Shown one piece after another: positions 4,775 through 60,093 of a stretch of DNA of 64,000 nt (position 1 is the first letter of the stretch; each line of letters begins with the position of its first letter). The notes beneath the pieces are model-generated. The model was not told the origin of the DNA and did no database searches. It was given only the letters and a program-made list of their open reading frames with translations. The translations under genes were made by a program, and so were the position numbers. The stretch lies in assembly GCA_964464375.1 (NCBI GenBank), contig CAYXFU010000016.1:15074-79073 (forward strand). The letters run 5' to 3'. Source of the DNA: an uncultured Hyphomicrobiales bacterium. GTDB taxonomy: Bacteria; Bacteroidota; Ignavibacteria; Kapaibacteriales; UBA2268.

Positions 4775-5563
4775 TTACAATTTTATAAATTTCCCAACTT
4801 TATCCCCAATTCTCACAAAATACATCCCCGGAGGCAAACTGGAGATATCGATTCTTACTCCCTCCCTGCTCGCGGGGAGGGTTGGGGTGGGGTTAGGTGT
4901 GGCCTGTATTTCTCCCAGCACATTATATATACTCACGTCGCTTTGTAGGGGCGAACGGCCGTTCGCCCCTACGGATATTTCTATGAAATCTGTAGTTGGA
5001 TTAGGCGATACTTCAAAATCTTCTTTATTTTCTGGATTTTTTGATGGAACGTCCAAATTAGTATCCTCGTATCTTCTTAGATAATTGAAATTTGTAACAA
5101 GGCTTACATGTCCTATCTTATTTTCAACTGAATCTATGTTAGAATAATTCATCAGTCTTAGAAGCAAAACTCGTGGTAAAAATTTGGTGGTATCGGGTTC
5201 TTGAGGTAAATACTCCCTAAACCAAAATGTTCCATAAAGCGATTCAAAATGCTGAAATTCATTTTTTGTATTTAAATAGGTTGTAAGAATATCATGCCAT
5301 GTATATTCTATTATTGTGTCTTTTGGATAAATTCCAGATCTAGGAATAACATTATACTGAAATTCAACTCGAAAAATTTGTTTGGCATATAATTGTCCAA
5401 ATGTCGGTGACCAGTAACAGCTATCAACTTTGACCGAATCGGGATTTTGAAATCCCATCTTTTGATGCTTAAGTAGTTTTAGGCAACTGTCTGGTACTTG
5501 TGCATAATTTGCACCCAAACCAATAAAACTAAAATAAAGAAACATAAAGAATAATCTTTTCAT
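4775..5563 (-). CDS. Secreted protein with T9SS C-terminal sorting domain
   Basis: signal peptide MKRLFFMFLYFSFIGLGANYAQ; C-terminus SPNPTTDFIEISVGANGRSPLQSDVSIYNVLGEI..GMYFVRIGDKVGKFIKL. Confidence 0.6.
   Translation of the reverse strand: MKRLFFMFLYFSFIGLGANYAQVPDSCLKLLKHQKMGFQNPDSVKVDSCYWSPTFGQLYAKQIFRVEFQYNVIPRSGIYPKDTIIEYTWHDILTTYLNTKNEFQHFESLYGTFWFREYLPQEPDTTKFLPRVLLLRLMNYSNIDSVENKIGHVSLVTNFNYLRRYEDTNLDVPSKNPENKEDFEVSPNPTTDFIEISVGANGRSPLQSDVSIYNVLGEIQATPNPTPTLPASREGVRIDISSLPPGMYFVRIGDKVGKFIKL
4858..4881. repeat. In-frame GC hairpin ccctccctgctcgcggggaggg at a second variable site of the CTD (between NVLGEI and IDISSL)
   Basis: inverted repeat seen directly; the analogous site in the 53712 gene and the 52735 fragment carries a different hairpin, cctctcctttccaaggagggg. 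Confidence 0.55.
4945..4972. repeat. Perfect 28-nt palindrome gtaggggcgaacggccgttcgcccctac, in-frame in the CTD (encodes VGANGRSPL); related copies at 23153..23180 and 52927..52954
   Basis: perfect palindrome seen directly; recurs in orphan CTD copies. Confidence 0.75.
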
Positions 5564-5705: not shown

Positions 5706-6497
5706 TTATCTAGAAAGATAAATTCTCTTGCGGATTAGTTTTTCCTTACCAATACGGACTTCGCCGACATAATCGCCAACGGGCAGTAGTCTTCCCGAAT
5801 CATCGCGTCCGTTCCATGTGTAAGTGAAGTCGCCGGGGCTCTGGATTCCGTCGAACATTGTAGCGATGATCACCGCATTCATAGAATAGACAACAACCTG
5901 CACTCTGGTTCTATATTCTAATGTATATTTCATTACGGGCGAAACATCCTCAACTAGTCCGAGAAAACTCCCAATCATTGAAAAAGGAATTTTAAGTCCA
6001 TTGGGGTTATAAAGAGTTGTGTTATTATAGGTCGATGCCTGCTGTAGATTGTATTCATGCTGGAACATCTCTCTAGCCGATGGTTTGAAGTATTCCGGAG
6101 GTATGTCGAGATTCTCACGGATTCTTTCGTATGGAGAATATGGTTTTTTAGCTACTGTAGGTAAATATTGGGAAAACATTCTGAGGTCATTGTTTAGCCT
6201 TGTCGAAAGTGGGATTCTCAATCGCAAAGCTCTTGTATAATTGCTGTCCTGAAACATTGATGTAGGTCTGCCGAATGCTCCGGGCATAGCATCCAATTTA
6301 GTTTTGACAGTGTCAATCTTTATTGTATCGCCTTTTAATATCTGAAGCGGAGTGAAGTTATTATCCTTGAGAATAACCTTAGAACTATCAGCTCCTGTTT
6401 TAAGGGCAAATGAAGAATTTGTGAATATAAAAAGGAACACAATGGCACTTAAAATAAAATGCAGATTTGACAGAGTATGTTTGATTTGACCGGACAT
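5706..6497 (-). CDS. Hypothetical secreted or membrane-anchored protein with C-terminal FlgD-Ig-like motif (FTYTWNGRDDSGRLLPVGDY)
   Basis: N-terminal hydrophobic segment; C-terminal motif. Confidence 0.35.
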   Translation of the reverse strand: MSGQIKHTLSNLHFILSAIVFLFIFTNSSFALKTGADSSKVILKDNNFTPLQILKGDTIKIDTVKTKLDAMPGAFGRPTSMFQDSNYTRALRLRIPLSTRLNNDLRMFSQYLPTVAKKPYSPYERIRENLDIPPEYFKPSAREMFQHEYNLQQASTYNNTTLYNPNGLKIPFSMIGSFLGLVEDVSPVMKYTLEYRTRVQVVVYSMNAVIIATMFDGIQSPGDFTYTWNGRDDSGRLLPVGDYVGEVRIGKEKLIRKRIYLSR

Positions 6498-18176: not shown

Positions 18177-18890
18177 ATGAAAATAAATATAAGCAATTCC
18201 GGTATATTCCTTACAGTCTTAGTTATTACTATGTTCGGAATAATATCATTATCGCAGGCACAGACAGTAACTCAGCCACTTGCAGGAGTATCCACTTCAG
18301 CAAAGGTGTACACTTATACTCACATGCTTTCTCAGACTCAGAAAAAGGATATCAGATACATTATTATAAAAGCATCTAATGGCGATGTTAAGTCTTGTTT
18401 CGATGCTTGTGACGTTTGTTATCTTGCAAATAAAGGATATGTTCAGTCAGGGAATCTTCTAAGATGCAATAACTGTGGAAACACTTTTGCTATAGACGGA
18501 CTTGGATCACAAGGTGTAGGAGGATGTTGGCCCGGTCACCTTCCTCATACTCTTGATGCACAAAATGTGATCTTCACAGTTTCCGATCTTATCACCGGCG
18601 ATAAATACTATCCAACTAAAGCAGTAACAGCTGTTCAGGATGAACCTGTAAGAGAAATGGCTTTGAGCTTTAACTGGTTCATTAAATCTGATTTGCTGAC
18701 AGTCAGTATGGATAATGCAAGCGAGAGAAATATTTCCATATTCAATATTTCCGGTAAAATCTGTAAAACGCTCGCTTTTTCTTCTAATCAGATTACAGTT
18801 GATATTTCTGATTTATCTGTAGGTGTTTATTTGCTTTCGGTTGAAGAAAATGGCAGAACAACAAGTCAGACAATTGTTATTAACAGATAA
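18177..18890 (+). CDS. CxxC-x(n)-CxxC..GGCWP protein (possibly DUF2318-like metal-binding) fused to a T9SS CTD
   Basis: CFDACDVCYLANKGY..LRCNNCGNTF..GVGGCWPGH; C-terminus ISGKICKTLAF..LSVGVYLLSV. Confidence 0.45.
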   Translation: MKINISNSGIFLTVLVITMFGIISLSQAQTVTQPLAGVSTSAKVYTYTHMLSQTQKKDIRYIIIKASNGDVKSCFDACDVCYLANKGYVQSGNLLRCNNCGNTFAIDGLGSQGVGGCWPGHLPHTLDAQNVIFTVSDLITGDKYYPTKAVTAVQDEPVREMALSFNWFIKSDLLTVSMDNASERNISIFNISGKICKTLAFSSNQITVDISDLSVGVYLLSVEENGRTTSQTIVINR

Positions 18891-23360: not shown

Positions 23361-24602
23361 TTATAACTTCACGAATTTACCGACTCGATCCCCAATCCTC
23401 ACAAAATACATCCCCGGAGCTAAACCGGAAATGTCTATCCGTAGGGGTAATTCATGAATTTCCCCAACAGACAATACAGTTTGACCATAAACATTGAAGA
23501 TTTTGAATTCGCTTTGTTCGGACACGGCACGCCGTGTCCCTACGGATATTTCAATGAAATCGGATGCGGGATTGGGAGAAATAGAAAAATTAAAGTCGTT
23601 AATTGTTTCTTGAATACCAGTTATACTTTTTAAACTGATTAGACTTATATATTCAGAATTACTTATAACTAAATAATTGCTATCTGATGTAAACTTAGCA
23701 TATAAAGCTCTTAGACTTGTTGATGCGATAACAGTACCATCATTAATATCCCATATTAAAATAGGATCTAAACTCCAAAATACACCTGCAACAATAAATC
23801 TATTATTAGGTGATACAGATAATGAATATACTGCGCTACTTGTTTTGATATTTCTTAATAGAGACCTGCTCTTTGTATCACATACATTAACTCCACTTGT
23901 ATTGTTATATTTAAAATAATCGCAAACAAATTTAGAGCCGTCATTATTAAATGTAGCATAATATGATGAACCCTCGTCTTTAATTACGATGGAATCAGTT
24001 TGTAGATCGGTTAATGAGGCAGGAGTAAATCTTGTTGCTACGGCTAAATATCTATCATCTTTAGAAAATTCGATAAAATTGGGTTGTTGTCTTTCCATCC
24101 ATTCACCTATCAAGCATGGATATTGTTTATAGATTTCATCAGTTTGGAAATTTCTTATAATTACGCCTTTCTCCATTAAAGAATAAGCTAAATACTTATT
24201 ATCATGGGAGAGCGCAGCATAAAATGATCCACTAGATAAATTAACCTTTATTTCTTTAACTAAAACCCATGTTTTCGTATCCCAAACAGTTAATTTACCA
24301 TAGTTTCCATCATCAGAACCAGTAGCAATGAGAAATGAACCGTCATAAGAATATTTTACAGCAAATAATGTATAATCACAGACTTTTATTTGCTTGAATA
24401 TAGTTCCAGTTAAAAGATTAACAATTCTTATTGTTCCATCTTTTCCGCTTAATGAAATAAATTTATTGTCTGGTGAGACGTCGAAATAAGAAGAAATACC
24501 AAATTCATTTCTCCAAACCACACTAGAGTCAAGTGATATTTGGCTCTTTACATTTGCAATAAAGAAGATGAAGAAGAGTAGAATAAGAATGAATTGTTTC
24601 AT
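23361..24602 (-). CDS. WD40/beta-propeller-like secreted protein with T9SS CTD
   Basis: signal peptide; C-terminus SPNPASDFIEISVGTRRAVSEQ..GMYFVRIGDRVGKFVKL; in-frame palindrome ggacacggcacgccgtgtcc at 23516..23535. Confidence 0.6.
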   Translation of the reverse strand: MKQFILILLFFIFFIANVKSQISLDSSVVWRNEFGISSYFDVSPDNKFISLSGKDGTIRIVNLLTGTIFKQIKVCDYTLFAVKYSYDGSFLIATGSDDGNYGKLTVWDTKTWVLVKEIKVNLSSGSFYAALSHDNKYLAYSLMEKGVIIRNFQTDEIYKQYPCLIGEWMERQQPNFIEFSKDDRYLAVATRFTPASLTDLQTDSIVIKDEGSSYYATFNNDGSKFVCDYFKYNNTSGVNVCDTKSRSLLRNIKTSSAVYSLSVSPNNRFIVAGVFWSLDPILIWDINDGTVIASTSLRALYAKFTSDSNYLVISNSEYISLISLKSITGIQETINDFNFSISPNPASDFIEISVGTRRAVSEQSEFKIFNVYGQTVLSVGEIHELPLRIDISGLAPGMYFVRIGDRVGKFVKL

Positions 24603-45362: not shown

Positions 45363-46667
45363 CTACATCCAGCCGTAAGCATCAAAACTTCCAAATCCAT
45401 AAACGCTTATTCCGAATGGAAGCGACGATTTAATGATATGCGCACCCGGTTTTAATTTTATGGTTCCGGTCATCATAGTTGTATCATAAAATTCGTTGAA
45501 CTTTTGTGTGTCAACTTTCACTCCGTCAATCGTCAGATCTGCCAATCCATCTTTAGGAATTGAAATATTTACAAAACTCTCGAAACTTGGCAGTTCGGGC
45601 ACATTCACAAGGTAGTTCAACTGATAAATGCTCTCGGGACGTACAAGTAACATCATCGGATCTCCAACGCTGTCGCCATTTCTGTTACCCTGACTGTACT
45701 GAGTGACAATTACAGGTTTACCGGATTTAATGGTAACATTTTCATTCATAGCGTCATTTTCATAAGACTCACCGCGATTAAGCAATATACCCTCATTACC
45801 GTTAATTACGAGTATATTATTTTCATCCTGTCCCACTATCTTAATCGAATATTTTGAGCGCATAGATAATGGGGAGATGAAGAAAGTAGTGCCTGCGAAA
45901 TTGTTTGGAAGCAGCTGTTCTACTAAAAAATTACATGCCATAATCTTCTCAGGCACATAACTGCACTGATGCCCGCTAAACACAGATATTTTCTTATCTG
46001 CCGTAATCTTAGTCCCGGTCAAATCCTTGAATTTCAAATCCTGATAAGCGGAATTGAATTGGAAGGATTCACCACGATTAAGAGTAATATTAATAGGAGC
46101 TTTTAGCTTTCGAGTTTCAGGATCTGTTTGTGGTGTAACGATTGATATGCGGGTGTTATCTTCAGACGCTACCACAGCGAACTCCGAGTTCAAGCCCTCG
46201 TTTGTGTTTCTGCTTGTAATAAAATAGTCTTTACCCGTTGTCTCAACAGGCAGAACAGTGAAACCATCTGTTGTCTGTAATCTGGAACTTAGGGCATTGA
46301 CCACGATCTTCGCATCCGAAGTGATATGAATACCCTGCTCGCTTTTGACGTTGCTCGATGTAATCTGCAATTCAGGAGGAAGCATAACAGTTGCCATTTT
46401 ATTTGGTTCCAGCTCTAAGCTTGTGCTGTAATTATTTCCCTTACAGGTAATTTCAACTTTAGCCTTGCTTTCAGATGAAATATAAAGGGTTAGAGTTAAA
46501 GCCGATGATGGAGGTCCGGATATGTTTCCGGATGTTGATGGTTTGCTTTCCTTATAATTCTGCATAAAGCACAGCCAGAAATCAGTGCCCGACTGAGAAA
46601 ACTGTGAAAAAGCCGGAAGTGCAGACAGAATCAAAAGACCAAACAACAAGATACTCTTCAGTTTCAT
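45363..46667 (-). CDS. Secreted protein with IgGFc-binding-like N-terminal motif (GTDFWLCFMQN)
   Basis: signal peptide; G-T-[DE]-F-W..F-M-x-N motif; no CTD. Confidence 0.4.
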   Translation of the reverse strand: MKLKSILLFGLLILSALPAFSQFSQSGTDFWLCFMQNYKESKPSTSGNISGPPSSALTLTLYISSESKAKVEITCKGNNYSTSLELEPNKMATVMLPPELQITSSNVKSEQGIHITSDAKIVVNALSSRLQTTDGFTVLPVETTGKDYFITSRNTNEGLNSEFAVVASEDNTRISIVTPQTDPETRKLKAPINITLNRGESFQFNSAYQDLKFKDLTGTKITADKKISVFSGHQCSYVPEKIMACNFLVEQLLPNNFAGTTFFISPLSMRSKYSIKIVGQDENNILVINGNEGILLNRGESYENDAMNENVTIKSGKPVIVTQYSQGNRNGDSVGDPMMLLVRPESIYQLNYLVNVPELPSFESFVNISIPKDGLADLTIDGVKVDTQKFNEFYDTTMMTGTIKLKPGAHIIKSSLPFGISVYGFGSFDAYGWM

Positions 46668-46812
46668 ATTAACCTCATGTATGTAAGAATTGAATATTCA
46701 GATCTATGTTAGAAAGATAATTCGATTTCAGATTTGTAGCATTAGTAATTTATAATATTTACAACTTACTTCAAAGTAATTAATATTAATTAATTATATG
46801 TTAATTGAAAAC

Positions 46813-46842
46813 CCGCTCCAAATATGGATTTGAAGCGGATTA
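46813..46842 (-). terminator. Hairpin ccgctccaaat..atttgaagcgg downstream of the 46858 gene
   Basis: ~10-bp stem. Confidence 0.4.
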
Positions 46843-46857
46843 GAGATTGAATAGTTT

Positions 46858-48744
46858 TTATAATTTCACAAACCGCTTGTTCACTCGCTCGGAATTATCG
46901 GTTGAGATATTGATGATGTATGTTCCACTTTGGAGTCCATTCATATCGAAATCGATTGTCTGTTCACCTTTTTGCAATTTTTCCCAATTTACCAACGTTT
47001 TTATATAATTGCCTGAAACATCGTGAATCGTAATATTTACAATTCGATCATTTAGAAGGAAGAACTTTATTTTGCCATTATCGTTGAATGGATTTGGAAA
47101 TACATTGATATCCTTGACTGATTCGGAGGAAAGTTTACACAATTCAAAGAATGTTTCATCGACGCTGAGCCCTTTACATGCTTCTTCGGGCATCATCTTA
47201 CCTGATTCAATCAACTCAATAGCTTTCAATTCCCTGCTTAAAACATTTCTGTATCTTTCGGGCAGTGCTTCAACAAACTCTTTGGTCGGTAAATACCAAA
47301 GTACTTCGGAAATTTGATCATAAGAAGAATCTGTTGATTTTTTATAAGGGAACATTACTTCAACCGGTACTAAATAGTTCATTAATAATCTGTTCTGATA
47401 GGCTTGTGAATAGACAGACCACCTATCAGAATCTTTTTGTATAACAGATTTCGCTGTTGAATCATTAAATTCTTCTGCTAATAGCCTTTTAAGCAATTCC
47501 TTAAGTAATTGAGTTTCAGTATATTTCATATAATATTCTTTTAAAATCGTATTATCATGTCCAAGAGGAGAGTAATCATACTTAATACTTTTTCCGGTTC
47601 CTGTCATAACAGGACATGTCATACAGAATTCTTTATTGCTCCAGCCATCGTATGGTATTATATTGTCTTTAGGAATAAAGATGTTTTTTTCTTTTCTCAA
47701 TTGATAATCATCTGAACCTATTAACATAACAGTACCAATACCTTCGGGATTGGTTTTCCAAAGAATTTCCTGCTTGTGTTTAATTAATGCAGGTTCAGGA
47801 CTATCTTTGTATTTTGAAACAATATCTTTGGGAACATCTTGACCAATAAAACTAACGAAATATGATTCAGTATTGTAATACAACGAAGAGTCACCATAAT
47901 TGATTCCCAAATTCTTAAGTTCATTAATATCAAGATTGATAACATTGATAGAAGAGGGCTTATTGTTTAATACAGTAGCCAATAAAACATATTGGGAGAA
48001 TTTTTTTACATTTTCAACTGGATTATCCTGCAAACTGATAGTTTTGGTTGCTTCATCATAAAGTTTTTTGAATTCTTCATCATCCTTAGCAAATCCAATT
48101 TTATCAAGATTCGGAATATTCTGTGCTGATAAACTTGCATATAATTCCTTATAGTGTGTTAATGCTTCGGAAGTTTCTATAAAATTATAAAATTGTATTG
48201 TTTGAGCTTTTGAAGAATCTATTCGGGTAAAATACATGTGACATGTATAAAAGAATTTATTACTATAATTATCATATCCGAGCTTTTCCCAGCCAGGCAT
48301 TGTATCATATCTTGCAATGTCAAATGTATCAATTCCAACGTATATTCGTTTTAAAAATTCTTGCTCATTTAGCGAAGTATTTGATGTTTCTTCCCGATTC
48401 TTAGTTTCTCTTTTGTTAATATTAACAATTTCTTTTAGAACTTCTTTATCAACCTTTTCCTCAATTCTCGCATTTGCTTGCTTCACTTTTGCTGTCTGCG
48501 ATTTGACTGTGGCTGGTTGCGGGTCATTGGATAAGTAGTTTATTCCAAAAATACCCAGCATTAAGATTGATGTTATTATAGATGTCATTTTGATTCCCCT
48601 TTTTGTAAAATGTTTAGAATTACCTAATGATTCGCTTCTGTCCACTCTTTCCAGAACACTTGTAAGTTCTGATTTGTCGAGGGGGAAGGGCGGAATATCG
48701 GTATTCTGCACATTTTTGATTATATTGGATAAATCCTTTTTCAT
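46858..48744 (-). CDS. Membrane protein with anti-sigma-like N-terminus, single TM, large extracytoplasmic region and T9SS C-terminal domain
   Basis: 4-nt overlap with the ECF sigma gene; TM IITSILMLGIFGINYL; C-terminus VFPNPFNDNGKIKFFL..GLQSGTYIINI..KRFVKL. Confidence 0.5.
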   Translation of the reverse strand: MKKDLSNIIKNVQNTDIPPFPLDKSELTSVLERVDRSESLGNSKHFTKRGIKMTSIITSILMLGIFGINYLSNDPQPATVKSQTAKVKQANARIEEKVDKEVLKEIVNINKRETKNREETSNTSLNEQEFLKRIYVGIDTFDIARYDTMPGWEKLGYDNYSNKFFYTCHMYFTRIDSSKAQTIQFYNFIETSEALTHYKELYASLSAQNIPNLDKIGFAKDDEEFKKLYDEATKTISLQDNPVENVKKFSQYVLLATVLNNKPSSINVINLDINELKNLGINYGDSSLYYNTESYFVSFIGQDVPKDIVSKYKDSPEPALIKHKQEILWKTNPEGIGTVMLIGSDDYQLRKEKNIFIPKDNIIPYDGWSNKEFCMTCPVMTGTGKSIKYDYSPLGHDNTILKEYYMKYTETQLLKELLKRLLAEEFNDSTAKSVIQKDSDRWSVYSQAYQNRLLMNYLVPVEVMFPYKKSTDSSYDQISEVLWYLPTKEFVEALPERYRNVLSRELKAIELIESGKMMPEEACKGLSVDETFFELCKLSSESVKDINVFPNPFNDNGKIKFFLLNDRIVNITIHDVSGNYIKTLVNWEKLQKGEQTIDFDMNGLQSGTYIINISTDNSERVNKRFVKL

Positions 48745-49304
48745 TTTGTAACCTCTCCCAGGATTGGATGAACCGGTAGATCAATATCATCTGAAATATC
48801 ATCTAAAATATTATTATTCACTCCGAGTAGCTCTGCCAGTTGCTTCCTGCCACGATATAGTCGTTTCTTCAGTGCATCGAGCGAGCAGTCCTGTATCGTG
48901 GTAACTTCGAGCTGAGAGTAACCCATGAGATCGAACAGCACGATTGCTGTCTTCTGCTCGTGTGGCAACTGATCGAGAGCACGATACATCAGGGCAATAT
49001 CAGTAAGTGTTTCCGGAGAAACCGTGTCGGACACAAGCGAAGAGCAATCCCACTCATCGAGAGGGACGTTCCCGTTAGTCCGGAGCGACATTTTCTGATA
49101 CTGACGCGATGCAATTGTGAACAAAAAGCTTAAGAAAGCACCCGTGTGAGTCAATGAATCGAAAGCTGAATAAGCACCGGCAATGGTTTCCTGCAGTAAA
49201 TCCTTTGCCAGATCTCTATTCCTTGTCATCGATAGACAGAACCGCCAGAGATTGTCCCTCAGCGGATCGAACATATCAAGGAATATTTTTTGCTTATTTG
49301 TCAT
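48741..49304 (-). CDS. ECF-type RNA polymerase sigma-70 factor
   Basis: region 2 (LLQETIAGAYSAF) and region 4 HTH (GYSQLEVTTIQDCSLDALKKRLYRGRKQL). Confidence 0.75.
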   Translation of the reverse strand: MTNKQKIFLDMFDPLRDNLWRFCLSMTRNRDLAKDLLQETIAGAYSAFDSLTHTGAFLSFLFTIASRQYQKMSLRTNGNVPLDEWDCSSLVSDTVSPETLTDIALMYRALDQLPHEQKTAIVLFDLMGYSQLEVTTIQDCSLDALKKRLYRGRKQLAELLGVNNNILDDISDDIDLPVHPILGEVTK

Positions 49305-49445
49305 CCCGATTCATCCTGATTCAAATGATTTAGAAATTTCAGATGTACAAAAGGGTAAGTGCAAATTAATGGAAAAAGGGGGACAAATAATAGAAAAGTA
49401 ATTTTTGGGGGGATTTTATATTTTAGCTGTGGTGATTACAAAATG

Positions 49446-49666: not shown

Positions 49667-49984
49667 ATGGTTAAAATCCCTGAAGAAATAGCAGATAAAA
49701 TCAAAAGATTTATTGATTTGCTCGAGAAATCTCAAATTCACATCGAGCAGGCAATTCTTTTTGGATCTTATGCTAACGGCACCCAGAATAAATGGAGTGA
49801 CATCGATCTGGCTTTAGTCTCTTCGAATTTCGAAGGGAATAGATACTACGATTTAGACAAACTGACAGATGCTCAATTCATGGTTGATACTGATATATCG
49901 CCATTACCCTACCGACCGGAAGATTTCACAAATGATGATCTATTCGTAAGAGAAATTAACAAAAGTGGAATCCGAATCGTATAA
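49667..49984 (+). CDS. Nucleotidyltransferase-domain protein (MNT-type antitoxin-like), no adjacent HEPN partner
   Basis: LFGSYANGTQNKWSDIDLALV (GS-x9-DxD). Confidence 0.7.
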   Translation: MVKIPEEIADKIKRFIDLLEKSQIHIEQAILFGSYANGTQNKWSDIDLALVSSNFEGNRYYDLDKLTDAQFMVDTDISPLPYRPEDFTNDDLFVREINKSGIRIV

Positions 49985-50002
49985 ATTGACATCACAAGCT
50001 AA

Positions 50003-50212
50003 TTATTTAATATTTTTAAATTCTTCGAGACTAATACCTGCTTGTTTTAAGATTGCTCTGAATGTTCCTTCGGGGATGTCTTTTGAATGAATGGATACGT
50101 AAGTTTGTCTACCGTCGTTATGACGAAGAATAACATGAGAACCGGATTGCCTTTTCTTCTCAAATCCAATTTTTAGTAATTTAGCTAGGACTTCAATAGA
50201 TTTATACGGCAT
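50003..50212 (-). CDS. hicA: HicA-family mRNA interferase toxin
   Basis: YKSIEVLAKLLKIGFEKKRQSGSHVILRH.. Confidence 0.7.
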   Translation of the reverse strand: MPYKSIEVLAKLLKIGFEKKRQSGSHVILRHNDGRQTYVSIHSKDIPEGTFRAILKQAGISLEEFKNIK

Positions 50213-50441
50213 ACTCCTCTAAATCCAGGACTGAATAAAATGTTTCGTTAGGAATTGGAACTGGCTCATGATTCTCTCTTTTCTCTTCGATCCATAATGA
50301 AATCAGATCCTTCGCAGCTTCTAATGCTCCTTCAATTCCTTCACCATGGGTAGTTAGTCCTAAAGTAGGCACATGTGCATAAAAATATCCATCAGGAAAC
50401 TCTCCTTCGGATATTTTTTCTAATAATATTCCATATTTCAT
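50202..50441 (-). CDS. hicB: HicB-family antitoxin (UPF0150-like)
   Basis: YFYAHVPTLGLTTHGEGIEGALEAAKD; overlaps hicA by 11 nt. Confidence 0.6.
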   Translation of the reverse strand: MKYGILLEKISEGEFPDGYFYAHVPTLGLTTHGEGIEGALEAAKDLISLWIEEKRENHEPVPIPNETFYSVLDLEEYAV

Positions 50442-53711: not shown

Positions 53712-54950
53712 TCAATATTTTATAAACTTCCAGATCTTATCCCCAATCCTCACGAAATACATACCCGGAGCCAAACCGGAGACATCGATTCTTGCTTTTT
53801 CCTCTCCTTTCCAAGGAGGGGTGTCACGATTGCGAAGCAACGGCGAAGCCCACTGCGGGGTGGTCTTGATTTCTCCAAGAACATTAAAGATTCTTATCTC
53901 AACAGATGGACTCCACTTGGCAAGTGGAGCCCATCTTGCCAAGTCGATTTCTATAAAGTCCGTGGCGGGATTAGGGAAAATATAATTATCTTTAACATTA
54001 ATATTATCATCAAATCCAGATTGTAGTGGTGAAGTTGCAACAACCAGATTATCGATCCACATAGTCTGTTCAATGGGAGAGCCATCGCCAATATAGGGAG
54101 CAATCAGGAACTGATTGAGCTTCATATCGGGGAATTGTGCTGTTCTGAATATAATATTATCATAACTTATCAAAATCTTGGAATCGTACCAGTATCTGAT
54201 CTTCCCGTCAGTAACTCCTTTACCGCCTTGAATACTATTCAGCTTAAAATATGCTTCCACATGATGCCAGTCATTCTTGTAGTTGAGTCCCTGTGCGTCT
54301 GTGAAATAAACTGTGTCGGCATCCCATATTCTTGCACTATAATAGTATCCACCGCCATAGTTGAAGCAATCGCTTCTATCGAAACCACCCTCGATACCAT
54401 TGCATGCGGCTATGGAACGATTCTCGGAGAACTTATAGCTATTAAAATCTCCATCGCAGCCGATAAAATTACCGTTGTTCTGCAAGATACACGTCTGATC
54501 TACATTCTTGCTGTCCTGAAGTGCAAGCAGGGGCTTACCCTCATTCTGTTCGATATATAAAGTTAGATGAGTGATTGCCGGACCGACATATTTATCATCA
54601 GCATTTGTCATAATATTAAATTCATGAGGATGATACGGCTTGTTCGAGCCTTCCCAGTTTGCACTATACTTCACCCAATAGCTTACGTAGAGTTCATCTG
54701 TTTCGGTGAACAGATGACGGCTGGGGGTCCCTGCGGCGCATCCTCTCTGCCCCTGCAGGAATTTACACTCGAAGCAGGCAGTACTCCCATTGATATGCTC
54801 AGCCGTTGAAATTGTCCCTTTAGACGCATCGTACCACCCACGCAAAGCAAAGTCATTATCATCAAAATTCTCAATAAAGAGAATGGTTTGAGCTAATAGA
54901 GCTACAAAACCAAAAGTGCTTATAAACAATATGATGAATAATGTTCTCAT
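53712..54950 (-). CDS. Secreted protein with T9SS CTD carrying two in-frame hairpins (WAPLAKWSP palindrome 53907..53931; cctctcctttccaaggagggg 53801..53821)
   Basis: signal peptide; C-terminus FPNPATDFIEIDLARWAPLAKWSPS..NVLGEIKTTPQWASPLLRNRDTPPWKGEEKARIDVSGLAPGMYFVRIGDKIWKFIKY. Confidence 0.55.
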   Translation of the reverse strand: MRTLFIILFISTFGFVALLAQTILFIENFDDNDFALRGWYDASKGTISTAEHINGSTACFECKFLQGQRGCAAGTPSRHLFTETDELYVSYWVKYSANWEGSNKPYHPHEFNIMTNADDKYVGPAITHLTLYIEQNEGKPLLALQDSKNVDQTCILQNNGNFIGCDGDFNSYKFSENRSIAACNGIEGGFDRSDCFNYGGGYYYSARIWDADTVYFTDAQGLNYKNDWHHVEAYFKLNSIQGGKGVTDGKIRYWYDSKILISYDNIIFRTAQFPDMKLNQFLIAPYIGDGSPIEQTMWIDNLVVATSPLQSGFDDNINVKDNYIFPNPATDFIEIDLARWAPLAKWSPSVEIRIFNVLGEIKTTPQWASPLLRNRDTPPWKGEEKARIDVSGLAPGMYFVRIGDKIWKFIKY

Positions 54951-54963
54951 AGGCTTTTCAACT

Positions 54964-57900
54964 TTATAACTTTATGAACTTTTGAACTGATGTTGCAATC
55001 CTAACAAAATAGACTCCTGACACTAATCCAGAGACATCGATCTTAACTCCCTCTACAAGAATGGAGAGGGTCGTGGTGAGGTTGATCTTTTTCCCATAAA
55101 TATTATAAATTTCAAAACTCAAACCTTCATCAATCTCGAATCCCTTCGCAAATACTATATTCAGCTCATCTATCACAGGATTTTCTGTAATTGTAAATTC
55201 AACAGGATTTATAAGTTGTATTCTGGCTATGTTAGGTTGACAGATGCCGGATACTTTGATGCTTCCATTTGTGATTTTGTTGATTATATCCTTGTCGCTC
55301 CATTCAAAATTTATTATTTCAATGGGTGTTATATCTCTATCCCCGATGAAGATCTGACCACAGATTTCACCGATTTTGGTTGGATTTTCTGTTAATTGAA
55401 TGTTGTCTCCGATCAGTTCTATTGTTCGTTTGCCGGATACTATTGTACCTTTGTTGGTTGTAGGGTTCATAACGGAAGCATCGAGTGTGATTACTGCTTT
55501 GTAGCTTACTTTGTCATCGTAAGGTTCGTTATCATCCTTCTTAGCCATTAGCGGAATGCAGAAATTCAGTTGTCCTATTTTTGCAGACATATCAGGTATC
55601 CAGACTGATGTGCTGATCTGTGTTTTGATGCTGTCTGACGCTGAGCCTTTGACTGCAATTAATAAAGACTGAACACACGGCTCGGTTATATCAATTATTA
55701 GTGAGTCCAGATATGATTTTGAATCAGTTGGCAGATAATCTATTTCGATATTTATTGATTCATTTTGAGCGAGTGTTTTTGGTGGCACAGGTGTTGGCTT
55801 AGCGGTGAAAGTATTTGCTTCAAGTCCCTTTATCTTTATGCTGAAGATTGTGACCTGTTGTGTATTTGTGTTCTTCAGTTCAATATTCTTTTTGCTTGTG
55901 GAGTTAACTTTCCTAGTACCGAAGTCAATATCAGTCAGCTGAATGACATCTGGTTTAAATTCAGTTATGGTGGTTGTTGCAGTTCCTTCGCATCCGTTAG
56001 TGTCGGTAACCGTCACGGAATAAATACCCGGATTTGATATAGAAATTGATTTTGTCGTTTCAGCTGTGTTCCAGAGATATGATTGAAAATCGTTTTGGAC
56101 AAGCAGGATGCTTGTCCTACCGGGACATAGGAATAAATCGCCTGATATTATCGGCTTTGGTTCTGCAACCTGAATTATATCAATTATTTCCGATGTTCCT
56201 TCGCATCCACCGTCATCTTTAACGTGAACTGAGTACTTTCCGGGTTTTGTGATCGTTATTGATTTTGTTGTTTCACCTGTGTTCCAGAGGTAAGATGTAT
56301 AGTTGTACTCTGTAGTTAGGTTCAAAGATCCATTTGGACAGAGAATTCCATTGTTACTAATTATCACAATTGGTTTCAGACTATCTACCAGTGTTACTTT
56401 CACTGTATCCGATATTGCTTTGCATCCGTTTATGTCAGTAACTTCTACATAGTAGTTTCCGGGTAGATTAACCGTTATGTTGTCTTCTGTGTTGCCTGTA
56501 CTCCAATTGTATGCGGTATATTTATCTTCTGTCGAGATGTTTAGTTTTGAGCCTGCACATAGTTCGGGGTTACGGCTCAGTTTAAGCTTTGGTGATATTT
56601 TGGGATAACTTTGAACGACTAAAGTGTCATATACCTCACAGCTACCGTTAATGCTTACCTTAACCCAATAAGTACCTGCTTTGTCTATGTCGATTTCTGA
56701 TGCTGTACTTCCATTTGACCACAAATATTTGTATGCATCATTTGGTGGCATTACTTTCAGTTTAGAGTTAATACCATCACATATCAAAGAATCACCCGAT
56801 ATATCAATGGTTATTGCTGGAAGCACATTTACCTCCACAGTGTCGCATCTGCTGCAGCCTGCATTATCAATTACGCAAAGAATATATTGGAATTTCCCGT
56901 TTGTATCCAAAGTTAGTTTGGGCGTTATAGAATTTGGATTGTCGAGTCCCTTAGACGGTGTCCATAAAATCGATTGAATTGGCTGAACACCACCGCTCAA
57001 CTGTCCTTTCAAATCGATTGTCGCATTGGTGCAGATATCAATATCAGGACCCGCAGAAATATTAATCTTTTGATGAATTCTAACAAAAAGCGAATCTGAT
57101 TTTGAACATCCGGCAGAATCAGTTACAGTTAATATATATTTCGTTGTCTTTTCCGGTGAAACGAGTGTGATTGCTGAATCAGGATCAACTATTCCTTCAG
57201 TTGGATTCCATTTATAGCGATATGGCGGAGTTCCTGATTTTGCTAAATTTCCTATAAATATCGATGAGCCGTAACAGATTGTTGTATCCTTGCCTGCCTC
57301 TATTTTAGGACCGATAACCTTTGCGACAAGGACTACAACCTTATTCCTGCCGCAACTATCGTAAACATCAATAAACTGAGTAAATGTTCCGGTATCTGCC
57401 GGAGCTGTAAATCTTACTTTTATTGCTTTAGTTTCATTAGCATTGAATTGTACAGAAGAAGGATTGCCCGATACGTAAGAAAACGGTGATTTTAAATCAT
57501 TAAAAGAAAATTTTGTACCAATAGTAGATTTGTTTTCTATATTAAAAATTGTGTCTTTTACAGAATTAGGGCATACAATTCCAAAATCAAGAGTATTAAA
57601 TCTCAATCCGCTTAACTTAAAAGATATACTGTCTTTAACTGCATTTAATGCAATACTAAATGGACTTTTAGGGGAATTATTTATAAGGTTTAAATTTGCA
57701 GATTTATTCCCCGATATTGATGACTTAAAACTAATTACAAACTTAGCAGAATCACCATACGGTATGATAATTGGCAATGCTGGTGAAATCAGAGAAAAGT
57801 CTGTAAAGTTAATTCCAGATGGATTTGAGTTTGATATTATTAGATCACAACCACCGGTATTCTTTACCCAAATAGAATCAAGCTCTGAATTTTCACAAAC

Positions 57901-60093
57901 TAAATTTTTAAATCTAAGATTTTTATTGGAAGAAATTCCAGGAGTAAGATATATTTGACTGAATTTTGTTACAAAACCATCATGTTGACCTTTTAGGGAA
58001 GTTTGAAATGCACCTGCTGTAACTGGATAATCATGGGAAAGGGTTGAGCCAGTGATATAAATATCATTCTTATTATCAATACAAATAGATGTTCCATACT
58101 CTCTATATGAACCAGAAATAAATGTTGAATAACTGAATTTTGAATCATTAAAATTCAATTTAAATAAAAAACAATCAGAGTAATAAGTCAATGGAGTAGT
58201 TTGATAAGCACATTGAATTATTGGGAAATCGTCAGAGATTGTATATCCTGTGATATATGGATTTTTCTCTGAATCCAATGCAATTGACAACCCATAATCA
58301 TCTTTTGAGCCACCTACAAAAGAAGAATATAAAATACTTGTGCCGGTATTATTGAATTTGGTGATAAAAGCTTCATTCATTTTCTTTTGTGTGGGTTGAA
58401 ATGAACCAGGTGTAGTTGGAAAATTAGGAGAAGCGGTACTTCCGGTGACAAAGGCATTTCCATTATTATCAACAACTACACCTGAAATTTGATCTGTACC
58501 TGAGCCACCAAGATAAGATGAATACAAAGCATCTGTGCCAGTTTGATTTAATTTAGTAATGAATCCGTCATGAGACCCACCGGCATAATTTATCTGAAAA
58601 GCTCCGGTTGTAGTAGGATAATCAGTAGTAGAAGTGTAGCCAGCAATATAAGCACATCCAAACGAATCAATTGTTAAGCTCAGCACAGATAGCCAATTTA
58701 ACAAAGATACCCCTAATTCTCCACCTAGAAATGTTGAATATATTAAACTTGTGCCTGTTGAATTACATTTAACTACGAACAAATCTGAAGAATTTCTTAA
58801 TGTTGTACGATAAGCACCGGAAGTAGTTGGAAAATCACTTGATAATGTTCCTCCTGTTATATATGAATTACCTGCAATATCTACAGATATGGAATTTCCC
58901 CAATCATCATTCAAACCGCCTAAAAAGGTTGAAAAAAGTAATGTAGAACCAGTAGAATTAAGCTTAGTAATAAATGCTTCAGTACCATTCCTTGTTTGGC
59001 GTAAAGCACCATTTGTTAAGGGGTAATTATCCGACCAGGTCGTACCAGTCATGTAAACATTTAAATTAGAATCGATTGCTAAACCTGCTCCCTCTTCTAC
59101 ATCATTACCACCGATAAATGTTGAAAATATAGGATATGTACCATTTACATTCATTTTTGTCACAAAATAATCAGCTATTACTCCTTTTGATGTATCAATA
59201 TTCGTTTGATATGCTCCTACTGTTGTTGGAAAATCTTTTGAATCGCTCTCTCCGCAAATATAAGAATTTGAATTTCTATCCACTACAATCCCATGTGGAA
59301 AATCTGGTCCAGATCCACCTAAATATGTAGAATACACCATTGGGTCAATTATCAAAGCTAAATCATGATTATAATCATCGATTTTGAAAGTGGCGGTTCC
59401 ATCGTAATTTAAAATAAAGCGGCAATCAACTTTGGTGCCTTCAGCAAGACTAAGCAATGCTTTGGGTTGATAAGCATAGATTTTATTATTGAGAACATTT
59501 CCTATGCTTGTACCAATAACCAATTCACCATTTTCATTGATTGCAAGGTTGTTCTGTCCTTCAAATTTCATCTTAATTTGAGATATATCTGCACCGGGAC
59601 TGACAATATAATCATATCTCAAACCAGCTAAAGTTTGTCCTTCTGTAGTTTTTGTATCAAAATAATATCTAATATCTATACCCTGATAAGCATCCTTTAC
59701 GATTACTTCTTTATACAGAGGCACAAATGAAGCCCATTTTGTAGAATCATTACCAATAAAGTAGTTATAATAAGTCTCCAGTTTTTCTTTGGTTAGATTA
59801 GTGCAGCTCTCATTTAAACCATCATATTTTAACCCAACAACATGACCTTTCAAAAACTTGTCTTCTATCTTGTTAAAGTCATAAACAACGCCGCTTTTGG
59901 TTATCCAGGCATTTATTCCATTCATCTTAGCAAGGAATTGTACTTCAGGATTCCACTGTCCTTTGTTTTCAATGAAGGAATTTGAATTGTTGATCTTTGA
60001 CAGGGTAGTCTCATCCATGCCGGTAAGCACAAGAGATGGATAGATGCAAATTAACAGGCAAATAAACAGATTTCTCATTTTCCGCCTCAGCAA
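54964..60093 (-). CDS. Giant (1709 aa) secreted adhesin-like protein: SBBP beta-propeller repeats + multiple Ig/PKD-like domains + T9SS CTD
   Basis: repeated ..GGSGxDxxxGIAVD..NVYVTGxTxSxDFP.. units; Cys-containing Ig-like repeats; C-terminus LVSGVYFVRIATSVQKFIKL. Confidence 0.7.
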   Translation of the reverse strand: MLRRKMRNLFICLLICIYPSLVLTGMDETTLSKINNSNSFIENKGQWNPEVQFLAKMNGINAWITKSGVVYDFNKIEDKFLKGHVVGLKYDGLNESCTNLTKEKLETYYNYFIGNDSTKWASFVPLYKEVIVKDAYQGIDIRYYFDTKTTEGQTLAGLRYDYIVSPGADISQIKMKFEGQNNLAINENGELVIGTSIGNVLNNKIYAYQPKALLSLAEGTKVDCRFILNYDGTATFKIDDYNHDLALIIDPMVYSTYLGGSGPDFPHGIVVDRNSNSYICGESDSKDFPTTVGAYQTNIDTSKGVIADYFVTKMNVNGTYPIFSTFIGGNDVEEGAGLAIDSNLNVYMTGTTWSDNYPLTNGALRQTRNGTEAFITKLNSTGSTLLFSTFLGGLNDDWGNSISVDIAGNSYITGGTLSSDFPTTSGAYRTTLRNSSDLFVVKCNSTGTSLIYSTFLGGELGVSLLNWLSVLSLTIDSFGCAYIAGYTSTTDYPTTTGAFQINYAGGSHDGFITKLNQTGTDALYSSYLGGSGTDQISGVVVDNNGNAFVTGSTASPNFPTTPGSFQPTQKKMNEAFITKFNNTGTSILYSSFVGGSKDDYGLSIALDSEKNPYITGYTISDDFPIIQCAYQTTPLTYYSDCFLFKLNFNDSKFSYSTFISGSYREYGTSICIDNKNDIYITGSTLSHDYPVTAGAFQTSLKGQHDGFVTKFSQIYLTPGISSNKNLRFKNLVCENSELDSIWVKNTGGCDLIISNSNPSGINFTDFSLISPALPIIIPYGDSAKFVISFKSSISGNKSANLNLINNSPKSPFSIALNAVKDSISFKLSGLRFNTLDFGIVCPNSVKDTIFNIENKSTIGTKFSFNDLKSPFSYVSGNPSSVQFNANETKAIKVRFTAPADTGTFTQFIDVYDSCGRNKVVVLVAKVIGPKIEAGKDTTICYGSSIFIGNLAKSGTPPYRYKWNPTEGIVDPDSAITLVSPEKTTKYILTVTDSAGCSKSDSLFVRIHQKINISAGPDIDICTNATIDLKGQLSGGVQPIQSILWTPSKGLDNPNSITPKLTLDTNGKFQYILCVIDNAGCSRCDTVEVNVLPAITIDISGDSLICDGINSKLKVMPPNDAYKYLWSNGSTASEIDIDKAGTYWVKVSINGSCEVYDTLVVQSYPKISPKLKLSRNPELCAGSKLNISTEDKYTAYNWSTGNTEDNITVNLPGNYYVEVTDINGCKAISDTVKVTLVDSLKPIVIISNNGILCPNGSLNLTTEYNYTSYLWNTGETTKSITITKPGKYSVHVKDDGGCEGTSEIIDIIQVAEPKPIISGDLFLCPGRTSILLVQNDFQSYLWNTAETTKSISISNPGIYSVTVTDTNGCEGTATTTITEFKPDVIQLTDIDFGTRKVNSTSKKNIELKNTNTQQVTIFSIKIKGLEANTFTAKPTPVPPKTLAQNESINIEIDYLPTDSKSYLDSLIIDITEPCVQSLLIAVKGSASDSIKTQISTSVWIPDMSAKIGQLNFCIPLMAKKDDNEPYDDKVSYKAVITLDASVMNPTTNKGTIVSGKRTIELIGDNIQLTENPTKIGEICGQIFIGDRDITPIEIINFEWSDKDIINKITNGSIKVSGICQPNIARIQLINPVEFTITENPVIDELNIVFAKGFEIDEGLSFEIYNIYGKKINLTTTLSILVEGVKIDVSGLVSGVYFVRIATSVQKFIKL

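What the first reader, a model, noticed from the sequence alone, without database searches (positions are those of the whole stretch)
46858..49304. ECF sigma factor translationally coupled to a membrane protein that ends in a T9SS sorting domain
The sigma gene stop overlaps the downstream start (ATGA), as in sigma/anti-sigma pairs. The partner has a short cytoplasmic N-terminus and one TM helix, as anti-sigma factors do. However it continues for ~520 aa outside the membrane and ends in a canonical Por_Secre_tail, here without palindrome insertions. An inner-membrane anti-sigma carrying an outer-membrane secretion signal is topologically odd. It may be a signal-anchored secreted or surface protein whose export status feeds back on the sigma factor.
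Basis: partly seen in the sequence, partly recalled or inferred. Interest (0 to 1): 0.55.

Follow-up and report, generated by a model that had tools for sequence, protein, structure and literature searches.

The report
Sigma factor partner with T9SS tail
A two-gene operon in an uncultured Ignavibacteria genome pairs a stress-type sigma factor with a membrane-anchored protein that looks like its inhibitor yet ends in an outer-membrane secretion tag; the pairing recurs throughout a large uncharacterised family, so gene regulation may be wired to the type IX secretion system.

Summary
On the minus strand, an ECF sigma gene (48741-49304) overlaps by ATGA a 628-aa gene (46858-48744). That protein has a conserved hydrophilic 52-aa N-terminus, one hydrophobic helix (res 53-71, basic residues on the N side), about 475 aa with no known domain, and a terminal Por_Secre_tail. 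The tail's predicted fold superposes on solved T9SS CTDs.

It is not a one-off. About 170 clusters at 50% identity share the architecture, all from Ignavibacteria/Kapabacteria-type MAGs. All 75 members scanned carry the CTD. An ECF sigma lies directly upstream of 34 of 39 genes examined, 27 with the exact ATGA overlap, and four of the other five are cut by contig ends. Six other CTD proteins in the window have ordinary N-terminal signal peptides, so this protein is the exception in its own genome.

The anti-sigma role rests on context and topology only. The N-terminus matches no known anti-sigma family, and sigma binding could not be tested.

Most likely this is a new family of single-pass anti-sigma factors whose ectodomain is a T9SS client, with sigma release coupled to cleavage, docking or export. 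I found no published description.

Verdict: new variant of a known kind, moderately high interest.

The parts
49355..49386 (-). Candidate promoter of the operon: TTGTCCCC-N17-CACTTAC, inside a ~90-nt upstream island
   Evidence: The island is 97-100% identical in L001 and L003 while sequence further upstream diverges. A similar TTGTCCCC...CACATAC lies upstream of the L002 sigma. It is the only copy in the 64-kb window. Function is inferred, not shown.
48741..49304 (-). ECF (group 4) sigma-70 factor gene, 187 aa
   Evidence: Pfam Sigma70_r2 (35.2 bits) and Sigma70_r4_2 (36.4 bits) are above cut-offs. TIGR02937 scores 52.8 against 42.9. No specific NCBIfam equivalog is reached.
48752..48759 (-). 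Shine-Dalgarno-like GGGAGAGG for the partner gene, inside the sigma coding sequence; the ATGA stop/start overlap lies at 48741-48744
   Evidence: Read directly from the sequence. The same ATGA junction occurs in 27 of 34 related pairs.
46858..48744 (-). Partner gene, 628 aa: putative single-pass anti-sigma factor with a T9SS C-terminal domain
48589..48744 (-). Res 1-52: conserved hydrophilic N-terminal region, predicted as two short helices (5-13, 24-36) followed by a K/R cluster; inferred to be cytoplasmic and sigma-binding
   Evidence: A family motif (M-K-x-L-D-K-Y-F-x-x-A-K ... P-L-F-S-x-E-E-L-R-S-I-L-E) is present across 106 full-length representatives. AF2 predicts the helices at low confidence. 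No match to known anti-sigma families.
48532..48588 (-). Res 53-71: the only hydrophobic segment (MTSIITSILMLGIFGINYL), read as a transmembrane signal-anchor oriented N-in/C-out
   Evidence: Kyte-Doolittle 19-aa mean is 1.7, and four K/R lie in the preceding 9 residues. In relatives the equivalent helix always starts at res 44-59.
48503..48600 (-). 98-nt patch (basic cluster + TM helix + 9 aa) that is 95% identical in DNA to a divergent paralogue-like gene in L002
   Evidence: flanking DNA is 35-60% identical, and 17/20 identical-residue codons in the patch use the same codon. There is no RNA-structure signal. Unexplained; recombination is the likeliest cause.
48355..48531 (-). Res 72-130: low-complexity K/E/N/T-rich linker, with a predicted helix at 97-117 and the rest disordered
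   Evidence: pLDDT is below 50. This is the most variable stretch among close relatives, at 32-65% nt identity.
47974..48354 (-). Res 131-257: folded region that varies across the family; candidate signal-specific part
   Evidence: AF2 pLDDT is 65-94. Only the closest relatives align here.
47104..47973 (-). Res 258-547: ectodomain core conserved across the family. It begins with I-x-G-I-x-x-L-E-L-T-x-x-E-L-x-x-L-G-I and ends with a ~90-aa module (res 450-545, 47110-47397) carrying W-Y-x-P-T-x-E-F-x-x-A-L-P-x-R-Y and two invariant cysteines (C523, C536)
   Evidence: The module is found in 149 of 151 representatives and is followed by 80-88 residues to the C-terminus in 145 of 149. No Pfam or PDB relative.
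46861..47103 (-). Res 548-628: type-A T9SS C-terminal sorting domain (Por_Secre_tail), ending ...KRFVKL
46805..46841 (-). Intrinsic terminator: 14-bp hairpin followed by UUUUC, 17 nt after the stop codon
   Evidence: Free energy -17.2 kcal/mol, z -6.9 against shuffles. It closes a two-gene transcription unit.

Best explanation
This is a bicistronic, translationally coupled operon encoding an ECF sigma factor and its cognate single-pass membrane partner. It represents a large, undescribed family in Ignavibacteria and Kapabacteria.

The partner most likely acts as the anti-sigma factor. Its conserved 50-aa N-terminal two-helix region would hold the sigma in the cytoplasm, and one helix anchors it in the inner membrane (N-in). 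Its ~557-aa periplasmic part ends in a genuine type-A T9SS sorting domain preceded by a family-specific disulfide-containing module.

The proposed mechanism is inferred, not shown. The ectodomain is a client of the T9SS. The CTD is captured by the outer-membrane translocon/PorV, either together with or after cleavage of the long disordered post-membrane linker. Loss of the ectodomain exposes the stub to intramembrane proteolysis and the sigma is released. Sigma activity would then depend on a signal read by the variable membrane-proximal domain and on a working T9SS.

Shown: operon structure, the coupling and its conservation, topology signals, authenticity of the CTD, and the contrast with normal cargoes in the same genome. 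Inferred: sigma binding, T9SS engagement, proteolysis.
For: Operon: the ATGA overlap with an SD, a conserved upstream island and a strong terminator right after the partner gene.

Conservation of the pairing: 34 of 39 related genes have an ECF sigma directly upstream, 27 with the ATGA overlap, and four of the five exceptions are at contig ends. Tandem sigma/partner pairs occur in L007 and L010-L012.

N-terminal region: it is conserved at protein level across 106 representatives and is followed by a K/R cluster and a single helix at a fixed distance. Among close relatives, promoter, sigma, N-terminus and TM are 93-100% identical in DNA while the ectodomain is mosaic.

Periplasmic location of the C-terminal part: two invariant cysteines and basic residues on the N side of the helix.

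CTD: all 75 members scanned hit PF18962, and it is always at the extreme C-terminus. The nearly invariant residues are PNP, G578, G593 and G607-x-Y609. The fold matches solved T9SS CTDs, including one bound in the translocon. Its Pfam score (43.3 bits) is at the top of the range of the window's other CTD proteins (32.6-43.2 bits).

Secretion route: at least seven CTD proteins in 64 kb indicate that the T9SS is a major route in this organism. The literature lists Ignavibacteriota among phyla that may have a T9SS (PMC11285876; PMC5837995).

Free-standing versions: rare proteins with a plain signal peptide plus module plus CTD exist (L030; P0148), which fits the ectodomain being exportable cargo.
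Against: The N-terminus has no detectable homology to any anti-sigma domain: Pfam at E<=10 on 46 members, and a profile against all PDB sequences. The AF2 model of this region has low confidence.

Sigma binding could not be tested because no complex prediction was available. A mirror-tree comparison did not discriminate: sigma versus N-terminus r 0.85, sigma versus ectodomain r 0.88.

No T9SS component genes lie in the window or in the fetched loci, so a T9SS in this genome is inferred only from its cargoes.

Known T9SS cargoes are soluble periplasmic intermediates with cleaved signal peptides. No tethered cargo has been described, and a tethered substrate could jam the translocon.

No dedicated signal-peptide or topology predictor was available.
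Confidence: 0.55

Rival explanations
1. A conventional inner-membrane anti-sigma factor in which the Por_Secre_tail-like domain has been co-opted as a periplasmic Ig-like binding or oligomerisation domain. It is never handled by the T9SS. Signalling would follow the usual ligand-triggered regulated proteolysis.
For: The CTD fold is a generic Ig/FN3-like sandwich that also matches many unrelated domains. This reading removes the topological problem. Many paralogues with different membrane-proximal domains look like ordinary sensor families.
Against: The domain is always at the exact C-terminus (145/149). It keeps the motifs and terminal signature of the genome's true cargoes, scores as well as they do, and is retained in 75/75 members. 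A mere structural domain would not be expected to keep the terminal position and the sorting motifs. Free-standing forms with a signal peptide exist (L030, P0148).
Confidence: 0.2
2. The partner is not an anti-sigma factor but a T9SS cargo whose expression is driven by the adjacent sigma. The long conserved N-terminus plus helix would be an extended signal peptide or signal-anchor, analogous to the ESPR of autotransporters, that modulates Sec targeting. The sigma would be controlled by something else.
For: No anti-sigma homology. The CTD is genuine. Extended, conserved signal-peptide regions are known for large secreted proteins (established knowledge, not tested here).
Against: Near-universal pairing of each family member with its own ECF sigma paralogue, mostly with ATGA coupling, is the signature of cognate regulator pairs rather than of a regulon member. 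There is no A-x-A or S-A-Q type cleavage site after the helix, in contrast with the six normal cargoes in the window. Sigma, N-terminus and TM are conserved as one block while the ectodomain is mosaic.
Confidence: 0.12
3. The gene gives two products. The full-length form is a membrane anti-sigma. A shorter form is initiated at the Met that begins the helix (M53), whose hydrophobic start serves as a signal sequence, so that the same ectodomain is also made as free T9SS cargo.
For: A Met at the start of the helix is present in 82 of 106 representatives. In the window it is preceded by AAGGGG at an SD-like distance, and the 98-nt DNA-conserved patch starts there. Some gene callers chose this Met as the start (P0033, P0077, P0107, P0113).
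Against: The K/R/G codons of a low-GC genome give purine-rich, SD-like strings by themselves. The short form would lack a positively charged n-region and a cleavage site. High-GC members lack the Met. No RNA structure marks the site.
Confidence: 0.05

Closest known systems
Classical ECF sigma / single-pass anti-sigma pairs (RpoE-RseA, SigW-RsiW and similar)
   Same: The sigma and its partner are co-transcribed and translationally coupled. The partner has a short cytoplasmic N-terminus, one TM helix and an extracytoplasmic C-terminal part. Release by regulated proteolysis is the default model.
   Different: The N-terminus is about 35-50 aa with two predicted helices and shows no zf-HC2, RskA or other ASD homology. 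The ectodomain ends in a secretion signal for an outer-membrane translocon.
SigI-RsgI multi-paralogue sensors of Clostridia and Bacilli
   Same: There are many paralogous sigma/anti-sigma pairs per genome. Each partner has a short (~50 aa) N-terminal inhibitory domain, one TM helix, a disordered linker and a variable extracellular sensing domain.
   Different: The sigma class differs (SigI-type rather than ECF). Those organisms are monoderm, so no outer membrane has to be crossed. There is no Pfam RsgI_N match and RsgI has no sorting domain.
FlgM / sigma-28 secretion checkpoint
   Same: Conceptually, an anti-sigma factor that carries a signal for a secretion machine, so that sigma activity reports the state of secretion.
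   Different: FlgM is small, soluble and exported by the flagellar T3SS from the cytoplasm. Here the protein is membrane-anchored and only its periplasmic part could be handled, by a T9SS.
PorA - PorXY - SigP signalling of the Porphyromonas gingivalis T9SS (PMC7712824)
   Same: A CTD-bearing protein influences an ECF sigma factor, linking the T9SS to transcription.
   Different: PorA is a small separate surface protein that acts through a two-component system. SigP has no demonstrated anti-sigma. Here the CTD and the putative sigma-binding end are in one polypeptide.
Ordinary type-A CTD cargoes of the T9SS
   Same: The C-terminal ~80-aa beta-sandwich has PNP and GxY motifs and a K-x-F-[VI]-K-L end, and its fold superposes on solved CTDs.
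   Different: Cargoes have a cleavable signal peptide at res ~1-25, as do the six others in this window. This protein has a conserved 52-aa hydrophilic extension and an apparently uncleaved anchor.
FecR-type anti-sigma / TonB-dependent transducer cell-surface signalling (including Bacteroidota PUL regulators)
   Same: Trans-envelope signalling from the outer membrane to an ECF sigma through a single-pass inner-membrane anti-sigma.
   Different: There is no FecR domain and no adjacent TonB-dependent transducer. The link to the outer membrane would be the protein's own CTD.

Membership tests
ECF (group 4) sigma-70 factors | Sigma-2 and sigma-4 domains only, about 170-200 aa | tested here: met
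   PF04542 and PF08281 are above cut-offs and TIGR02937 scores 52.8 against 42.9; length is 187 aa. No specific equivalog or subfamily model is reached, so the ECF group is unassigned.
T9SS type-A C-terminal sorting domain (Por_Secre_tail, TIGR04183) | Match to the family model above the curated cut-off, located at the extreme C-terminus | tested here: met
   PF18962 scores 43.3 against 27 and TIGR04183 40.5 against 23, over res 548-627 of 628. All 75 relatives scanned match, and the domain is terminal in 145/149.
T9SS type-A C-terminal sorting domain (Por_Secre_tail, TIGR04183) | Seven-stranded Ig-like beta-sandwich fold like solved CTDs | tested here: met
T9SS cargo protein | N-terminal cleavable Sec signal peptide giving a soluble periplasmic intermediate | tested here: not met
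   The hydrophobic segment starts at res 53 after a conserved hydrophilic region, and no small-x-small site follows it. The six other CTD proteins in the window have classic signal peptides. No dedicated predictor was available.
T9SS cargo protein | Export or surface attachment that depends on T9SS components | not testable with these tools
   This needs genetics or proteomics.
Anti-sigma factor (functional class) | Gene immediately downstream of, and co-transcribed with, its sigma factor | tested here: met
   ATGA overlap, an SD and a terminator after the second gene. The arrangement is conserved in 34 of 39 relatives.
Anti-sigma factor (functional class) | Direct binding and inhibition of the cognate sigma | not testable with these tools
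   Only single-chain structure prediction was available. The mirror-tree test was uninformative.
Class I anti-sigma domain families (zf-HC2, RskA/RsiW-like), FecR, RsgI_N | Sequence match of the cytoplasmic N-terminus to the family profile | tested here: not met
   No such family appears for any of 46 N-termini at E<=10, nor for the full proteins. A profile against PDB sequences gives only chance-level hits.
Single-pass type II (N-in, C-out) membrane protein | One TM helix, positive-inside bias, and extracytoplasmic markers on the C-terminal side | tested here: inconclusive
   There is one hydrophobic segment with four K/R just before it. Invariant Cys pair and the CTD lie on the C-terminal side. 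This was not confirmed with a topology predictor or by experiment.

The most novel reading that the evidence does not exclude
The family is a T9SS-coupled signalling device. An anti-sigma factor's ectodomain is captured or exported through its CTD, so sigma release is gated by the secretion machine. That could work as a FlgM-like checkpoint for the T9SS. Alternatively, since there are many paralogues with different sensor regions, it could be a way of placing sensor domains at or beyond the outer membrane of a diderm while they remain, at least transiently, linked to a cytoplasmic sigma-binding end.
Probability: 0.35. Interest if true: 0.85.

Novelty: new variant of a known kind. Interest (0 to 1): 0.62.

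Why it matters
ECF sigma/anti-sigma pairs are one of the main bacterial signalling systems, and the T9SS is the main secretion and motility machine of the Bacteroidota-Ignavibacteria lineage. How T9SS activity or extracellular insoluble substrates are reported to the transcription machinery is poorly understood. The only described link is the indirect PorA-PorXY-SigP route.

A whole family in which the presumed anti-sigma itself carries the T9SS sorting domain would give a direct, testable physical link between the two systems. It would also pose a mechanistic question for the T9SS field: what the translocon does with a substrate tethered to the inner membrane.

The family additionally defines three uncharacterised conserved elements: an N-terminal two-helix region, a ~290-aa ectodomain core, and a ~90-aa disulfide module that always precedes the CTD.

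Tried and rejected
1. Homology of the N-terminal 50 aa to anti-sigma families. Pfam on 46 members at E<=10 and a profile against PDB sequences gave nothing meaningful.
2. Word-index protein searches with the N-terminus, as a single sequence and as an alignment. Neither returned a hit, so I could not ask whether this N-terminal domain occurs with other C-terminal architectures.
It was rerun with representative proteins only.
5. The first alignment for the genome scan was too diverse. A narrower one worked but samples only the members with the LWY.PT.EF motif.
6. Search for the 98-nt conserved patch in JGI metagenome contigs: no match. RNA structure in the patch: none, z -0.03.
7. Regulon search with the candidate promoter motif: it is unique in the window and restricted to the closest subfamily, so no targets were identified. 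The downstream IgGFc_binding gene lacks it.
8. Mirror-tree test for sigma/N-terminus co-evolution: all parts correlate equally (r 0.85-0.88), so it is uninformative.
9. The consensus terminator scan missed the terminator. Direct folding showed it.
10. Literature searches for an anti-sigma with a T9SS CTD found none. No supplementary files of the ECF reclassification paper are held in the paper library.
Full report
**What is there.** Both genes lie on the minus strand. ORF 48741-49304 encodes a 187-aa protein. It matches Sigma70_r2 and Sigma70_r4_2 above Pfam cut-offs and the ECF superfamily model TIGR02937 (52.8 bits against 42.9), but it reaches no specific NCBIfam equivalog. ORF 46858-48744 encodes 628 aa. 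The sigma stop and the partner start overlap as ATGA (48741-48744), and a GGGAGAGG Shine-Dalgarno-like string sits 7 nt upstream of the partner ATG. A 14-bp hairpin (-17.2 kcal/mol, z -6.9 against shuffles) followed by UUUUC begins 17 nt after the partner stop, so the unit is bicistronic. The ~90 nt upstream of the sigma gene are 97-100% identical in the two closest relatives, while sequence further upstream diverges. This island contains TTGTCCCC-N17-CACTTAC, which is unique in the window and recurs in similar form upstream of a more distant relative's sigma. I treat it as a candidate promoter only.

**The partner protein.** It has one hydrophobic segment (res 53-71, Kyte-Doolittle mean about 1.7). 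The segment is preceded by KHFTKRGIK and followed by polar residues, which fits an N-in/C-out orientation. Res 548-624 match Por_Secre_tail (E 4.6e-11, 43.3 bits against a cut-off of 27) and TIGR04183 (40.5 against 23). Nothing else in Pfam or NCBIfam matches.

An AlphaFold2 model built on 107 family sequences has mean pLDDT 73.6. Its features, in order:
- two short low-confidence helices in the N-terminus (5-13, 24-36);
- a poorly modelled helix and linker up to about res 130;
- well-modelled folded regions at 134-390;
- a helical stretch at 399-457;
- a confident module at 459-540;
- a confident beta-sandwich at 543-627.

**Contrast within the same genome.** At least seven proteins in the 64-kb window carry Por_Secre_tail. 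The other six all start with an ordinary signal peptide at residues about 4-25 ending in SAQ/AQ-type sites. Only the sigma-coupled protein has its hydrophobic segment at residue 53 behind a hydrophilic extension. All of them share the C-terminal signature K-x-F-[VI]-K-L. The sigma-coupled protein's CTD scores at the top of the window's range (43.3 bits against 32.6-43.2).

**It is a family.** An exhaustive HMMER search with res 1-545 (CTD removed) against 1.84 billion representatives found 172 proteins at E<=0.001. The main findings on these are:
- Of the 151 retrieved, 106 are full-length. They have the same layout: a 44-59-aa hydrophilic N-terminus with a recognisable motif (M-K-x-L-D-K-Y-F-x-x-A-K ... 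P-L-F-S-x-E-E-L-R-S-I-L-E), then a K/R cluster, then one helix.
- A ~90-aa module (W-Y-x-P-T-x-E-F-x-x-A-L-P-x-R-Y ... two invariant Cys) is present in 149 of 151. In 145 of 149 it is followed by 80-88 residues to the C-terminus.
- All 75 members scanned with Pfam hit Por_Secre_tail, and no other domain recurs.
- The nearly invariant CTD positions are PNP, G578, G593 and G607-x-Y609.
- A broader conserved core starts at about res 258 with I-x-G-I-x-x-L-E-L-T-x-x-E-L-x-x-L-G-I. The region between the linker and this core varies between members.

**Is the sigma coupling conserved?** Yes. The two close homologues (84% and 80% identity) and a distant one (29% identity over the C-terminal third) all sit behind a sigma gene with a 4-nt overlap. 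A scan of one genome per species returned 28 loci. Most titles name Ignavibacteria, Kapabacteria or Chlorobiota MAGs. The rest are labelled Bacteroidetes/Bacteroidota, Armatimonadota, Hyphomicrobiales or simply bacterium, and I have not checked whether those labels are binning errors. The closest is uncultured Ignavibacteria KTt_bin-1687. A metagenome scan added four more loci. Across the window and these loci, 34 of 39 family genes have an ECF sigma homologous to the window's directly upstream on the same strand. In 27 the overlap is exactly ATGA. Four of the five exceptions are cut by contig ends. The fifth (L030) is a 283-aa protein with a plain signal peptide plus module plus CTD. Kapabacteria loci L007 and L010-L012 carry two or more sigma/partner pairs in tandem.

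**What the N-terminus is not.** A profile of 46 N-termini against all PDB chain sequences gave only chance-level hits. Pfam scans of each at E<=10 returned no anti-sigma family: no zf-HC2, RskA, FecR or RsgI_N. Two word-index searches meant to find this N-terminal domain in other architectures returned nothing. A mirror-tree comparison of identity matrices was uninformative (sigma versus N-terminus r 0.85; sigma versus ectodomain r 0.88). The anti-sigma assignment therefore rests on four things: gene order and coupling, their near-universal conservation, the topology, and the way promoter, sigma, N-terminus and TM are conserved together (93-100% nt identity) among close relatives while the post-membrane linker (32-65%) and parts of the ectodomain are mosaic.

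**Mechanism.** The best-supported reading is an ECF sigma held by a single-pass anti-sigma whose periplasmic part is a T9SS client. The invariant cysteine pair and the CTD place the C-terminal part outside the cytoplasm. The CTD's terminal position, motifs, score and fold argue that it is still read by the T9SS. The abundance of CTD cargoes shows the organism relies on that system, and the literature lists Ignavibacteriota among phyla that may possess a T9SS (PMC11285876; PMC5837995). Known cargoes are soluble, so a tethered one must either be cleaved or merely dock. I propose that loss or capture of the ectodomain triggers intramembrane proteolysis and sigma release, by cleavage in the long disordered linker and/or pulling by the translocon. 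The multiplicity of paralogues with different membrane-proximal regions suggests signal-specific sensors that share a common T9SS-linked module, rather than one sensor of T9SS status. All of these steps are inference.

**Rivals.**
- The CTD is only a periplasmic Ig-like domain in an otherwise conventional anti-sigma. This removes the paradox but does not explain the retained sorting features.
- The partner is sigma-regulated cargo with an extended signal-anchor, analogous to autotransporter ESPRs. This does not explain one dedicated sigma paralogue per protein or the missing cleavage site.
- The gene gives two products, the second from the Met at the start of the helix. That Met is present in 82 of 106 members and is preceded by an SD-like AAGGGG in the window. 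However, K/R/G codons in a low-GC genome produce such strings anyway, and high-GC members lack the Met.

**Prior knowledge.** Full-text searches found no description of an anti-sigma factor carrying a T9SS CTD. The nearest concept is PorA, a small CTD protein that affects PorXY-SigP signalling in P. gingivalis (PMC7712824). The main text of the 2021 ECF reclassification paper does not mention Ignavibacteria or sorting domains, and none of its supplementary files are held in the paper library. I rate this a new variant of a known kind, a sigma/anti-sigma pair with an unprecedented T9SS-linked ectodomain. It is documented here only by comparative genomics and modelling.

**Unexplained.** A 98-nt stretch (48503-48600) encodes the basic cluster, the TM helix and nine following residues. 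It is 95% identical in DNA to the corresponding part of the distant relative in L002, although the rest of the two genes is 35-60% identical. Synonymous sites are conserved, there is no RNA-structure signal, and the sequence was not found in JGI metagenomes. Given the mosaic pattern among close relatives, a recombination or gene-conversion patch is the likeliest cause, but this is not shown.

Noticed in passing
window 2941-2970, 3015-3047, 4945-4972, 23438-23471, 53904-53936: Perfect or near-perfect palindromes of about 28-33 nt (for example TGTAGGGGTTCAAAA/TTTTGAACCCCTACA, and AGATGGACTCCACTTG/CAAGTGGAGCCCATCT, which is present in two genes) lie in frame inside the CTD-coding ends of other Por_Secre_tail genes. 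They appear as extra loop segments in the proteins (for example WAPLAKWSPS). The sigma-coupled gene has none.
   Followed up: partly
window 48503-48600 (-) versus L002:2008-2105: A 98-nt patch covering the TM helix is 95% identical in DNA between otherwise divergent genes (35-60% nt identity elsewhere), with synonymous sites conserved. There is no RNA structure and no match in JGI metagenomes.
   Followed up: partly
window 48586-48588 (-) (Met53) and family alignment column 100: A Met at the first position of the TM helix is present in 82 of 106 family representatives. In the window it is preceded by AAGGGG at SD-like spacing, and several database gene calls start at this Met (P0033, P0077, P0107, P0113).
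   Followed up: partly
L007, L010, L011, L012 (Kapabacteria/Chlorobiota MAGs): Two or more sigma/partner pairs lie in tandem, with partners of about 820 aa. L011 and L012 overlap on the same contig (OZ223201.1), which gives a run of at least three pairs.
   Followed up: partly
L030:3545-4393; protein P0148: Rare free-standing relatives have an ordinary signal peptide, the conserved module and the CTD, but no N-terminal extension and no adjacent sigma.
   Followed up: no
window 45363-46667 (-): The gene after the terminator encodes a 434-aa IgGFc_binding-domain protein (E 1e-61) with a normal signal peptide and no CTD. An IgGFc_binding gene follows the pair on P0002's contig. In L001 a gene also follows, but its family is not on record there. 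It lacks the candidate promoter motif.
   Followed up: partly
window 49667-50441: A nucleotidyltransferase-domain gene (49667-49984, +) and a HicA toxin gene (50003-50212, -) with an overlapping 79-aa upstream ORF (50202-50441, probably HicB-like; no Pfam hit) lie between the sigma operon and the transaldolase gene. L001 has neither, and the P0002 contig has an ABC transporter there, so this flank is variable.
   Followed up: no
window 48350-48470 (-), partner res ~92-131: The post-membrane linker is low-complexity, rich in K/E/N/T, predicted disordered, and by far the most variable part among close relatives (32-65% nt identity against 85-100% elsewhere). Separate 40-50% patches occur in the ectodomain of one relative but not the other, which indicates mosaic recombination.
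   Followed up: partly
window 2859-4763, 4775-5563, 18177-18890, 23361-24602, 53712-54950, 54964-60093: The density of Por_Secre_tail proteins is high, at seven in 64 kb. They include a 1709-aa DUF7948/SBBP beta-propeller protein and an FtrD-like protein. A neighbouring 263-aa protein (5706-6497) ends in a FlgD_ig-like domain instead.
   Followed up: no
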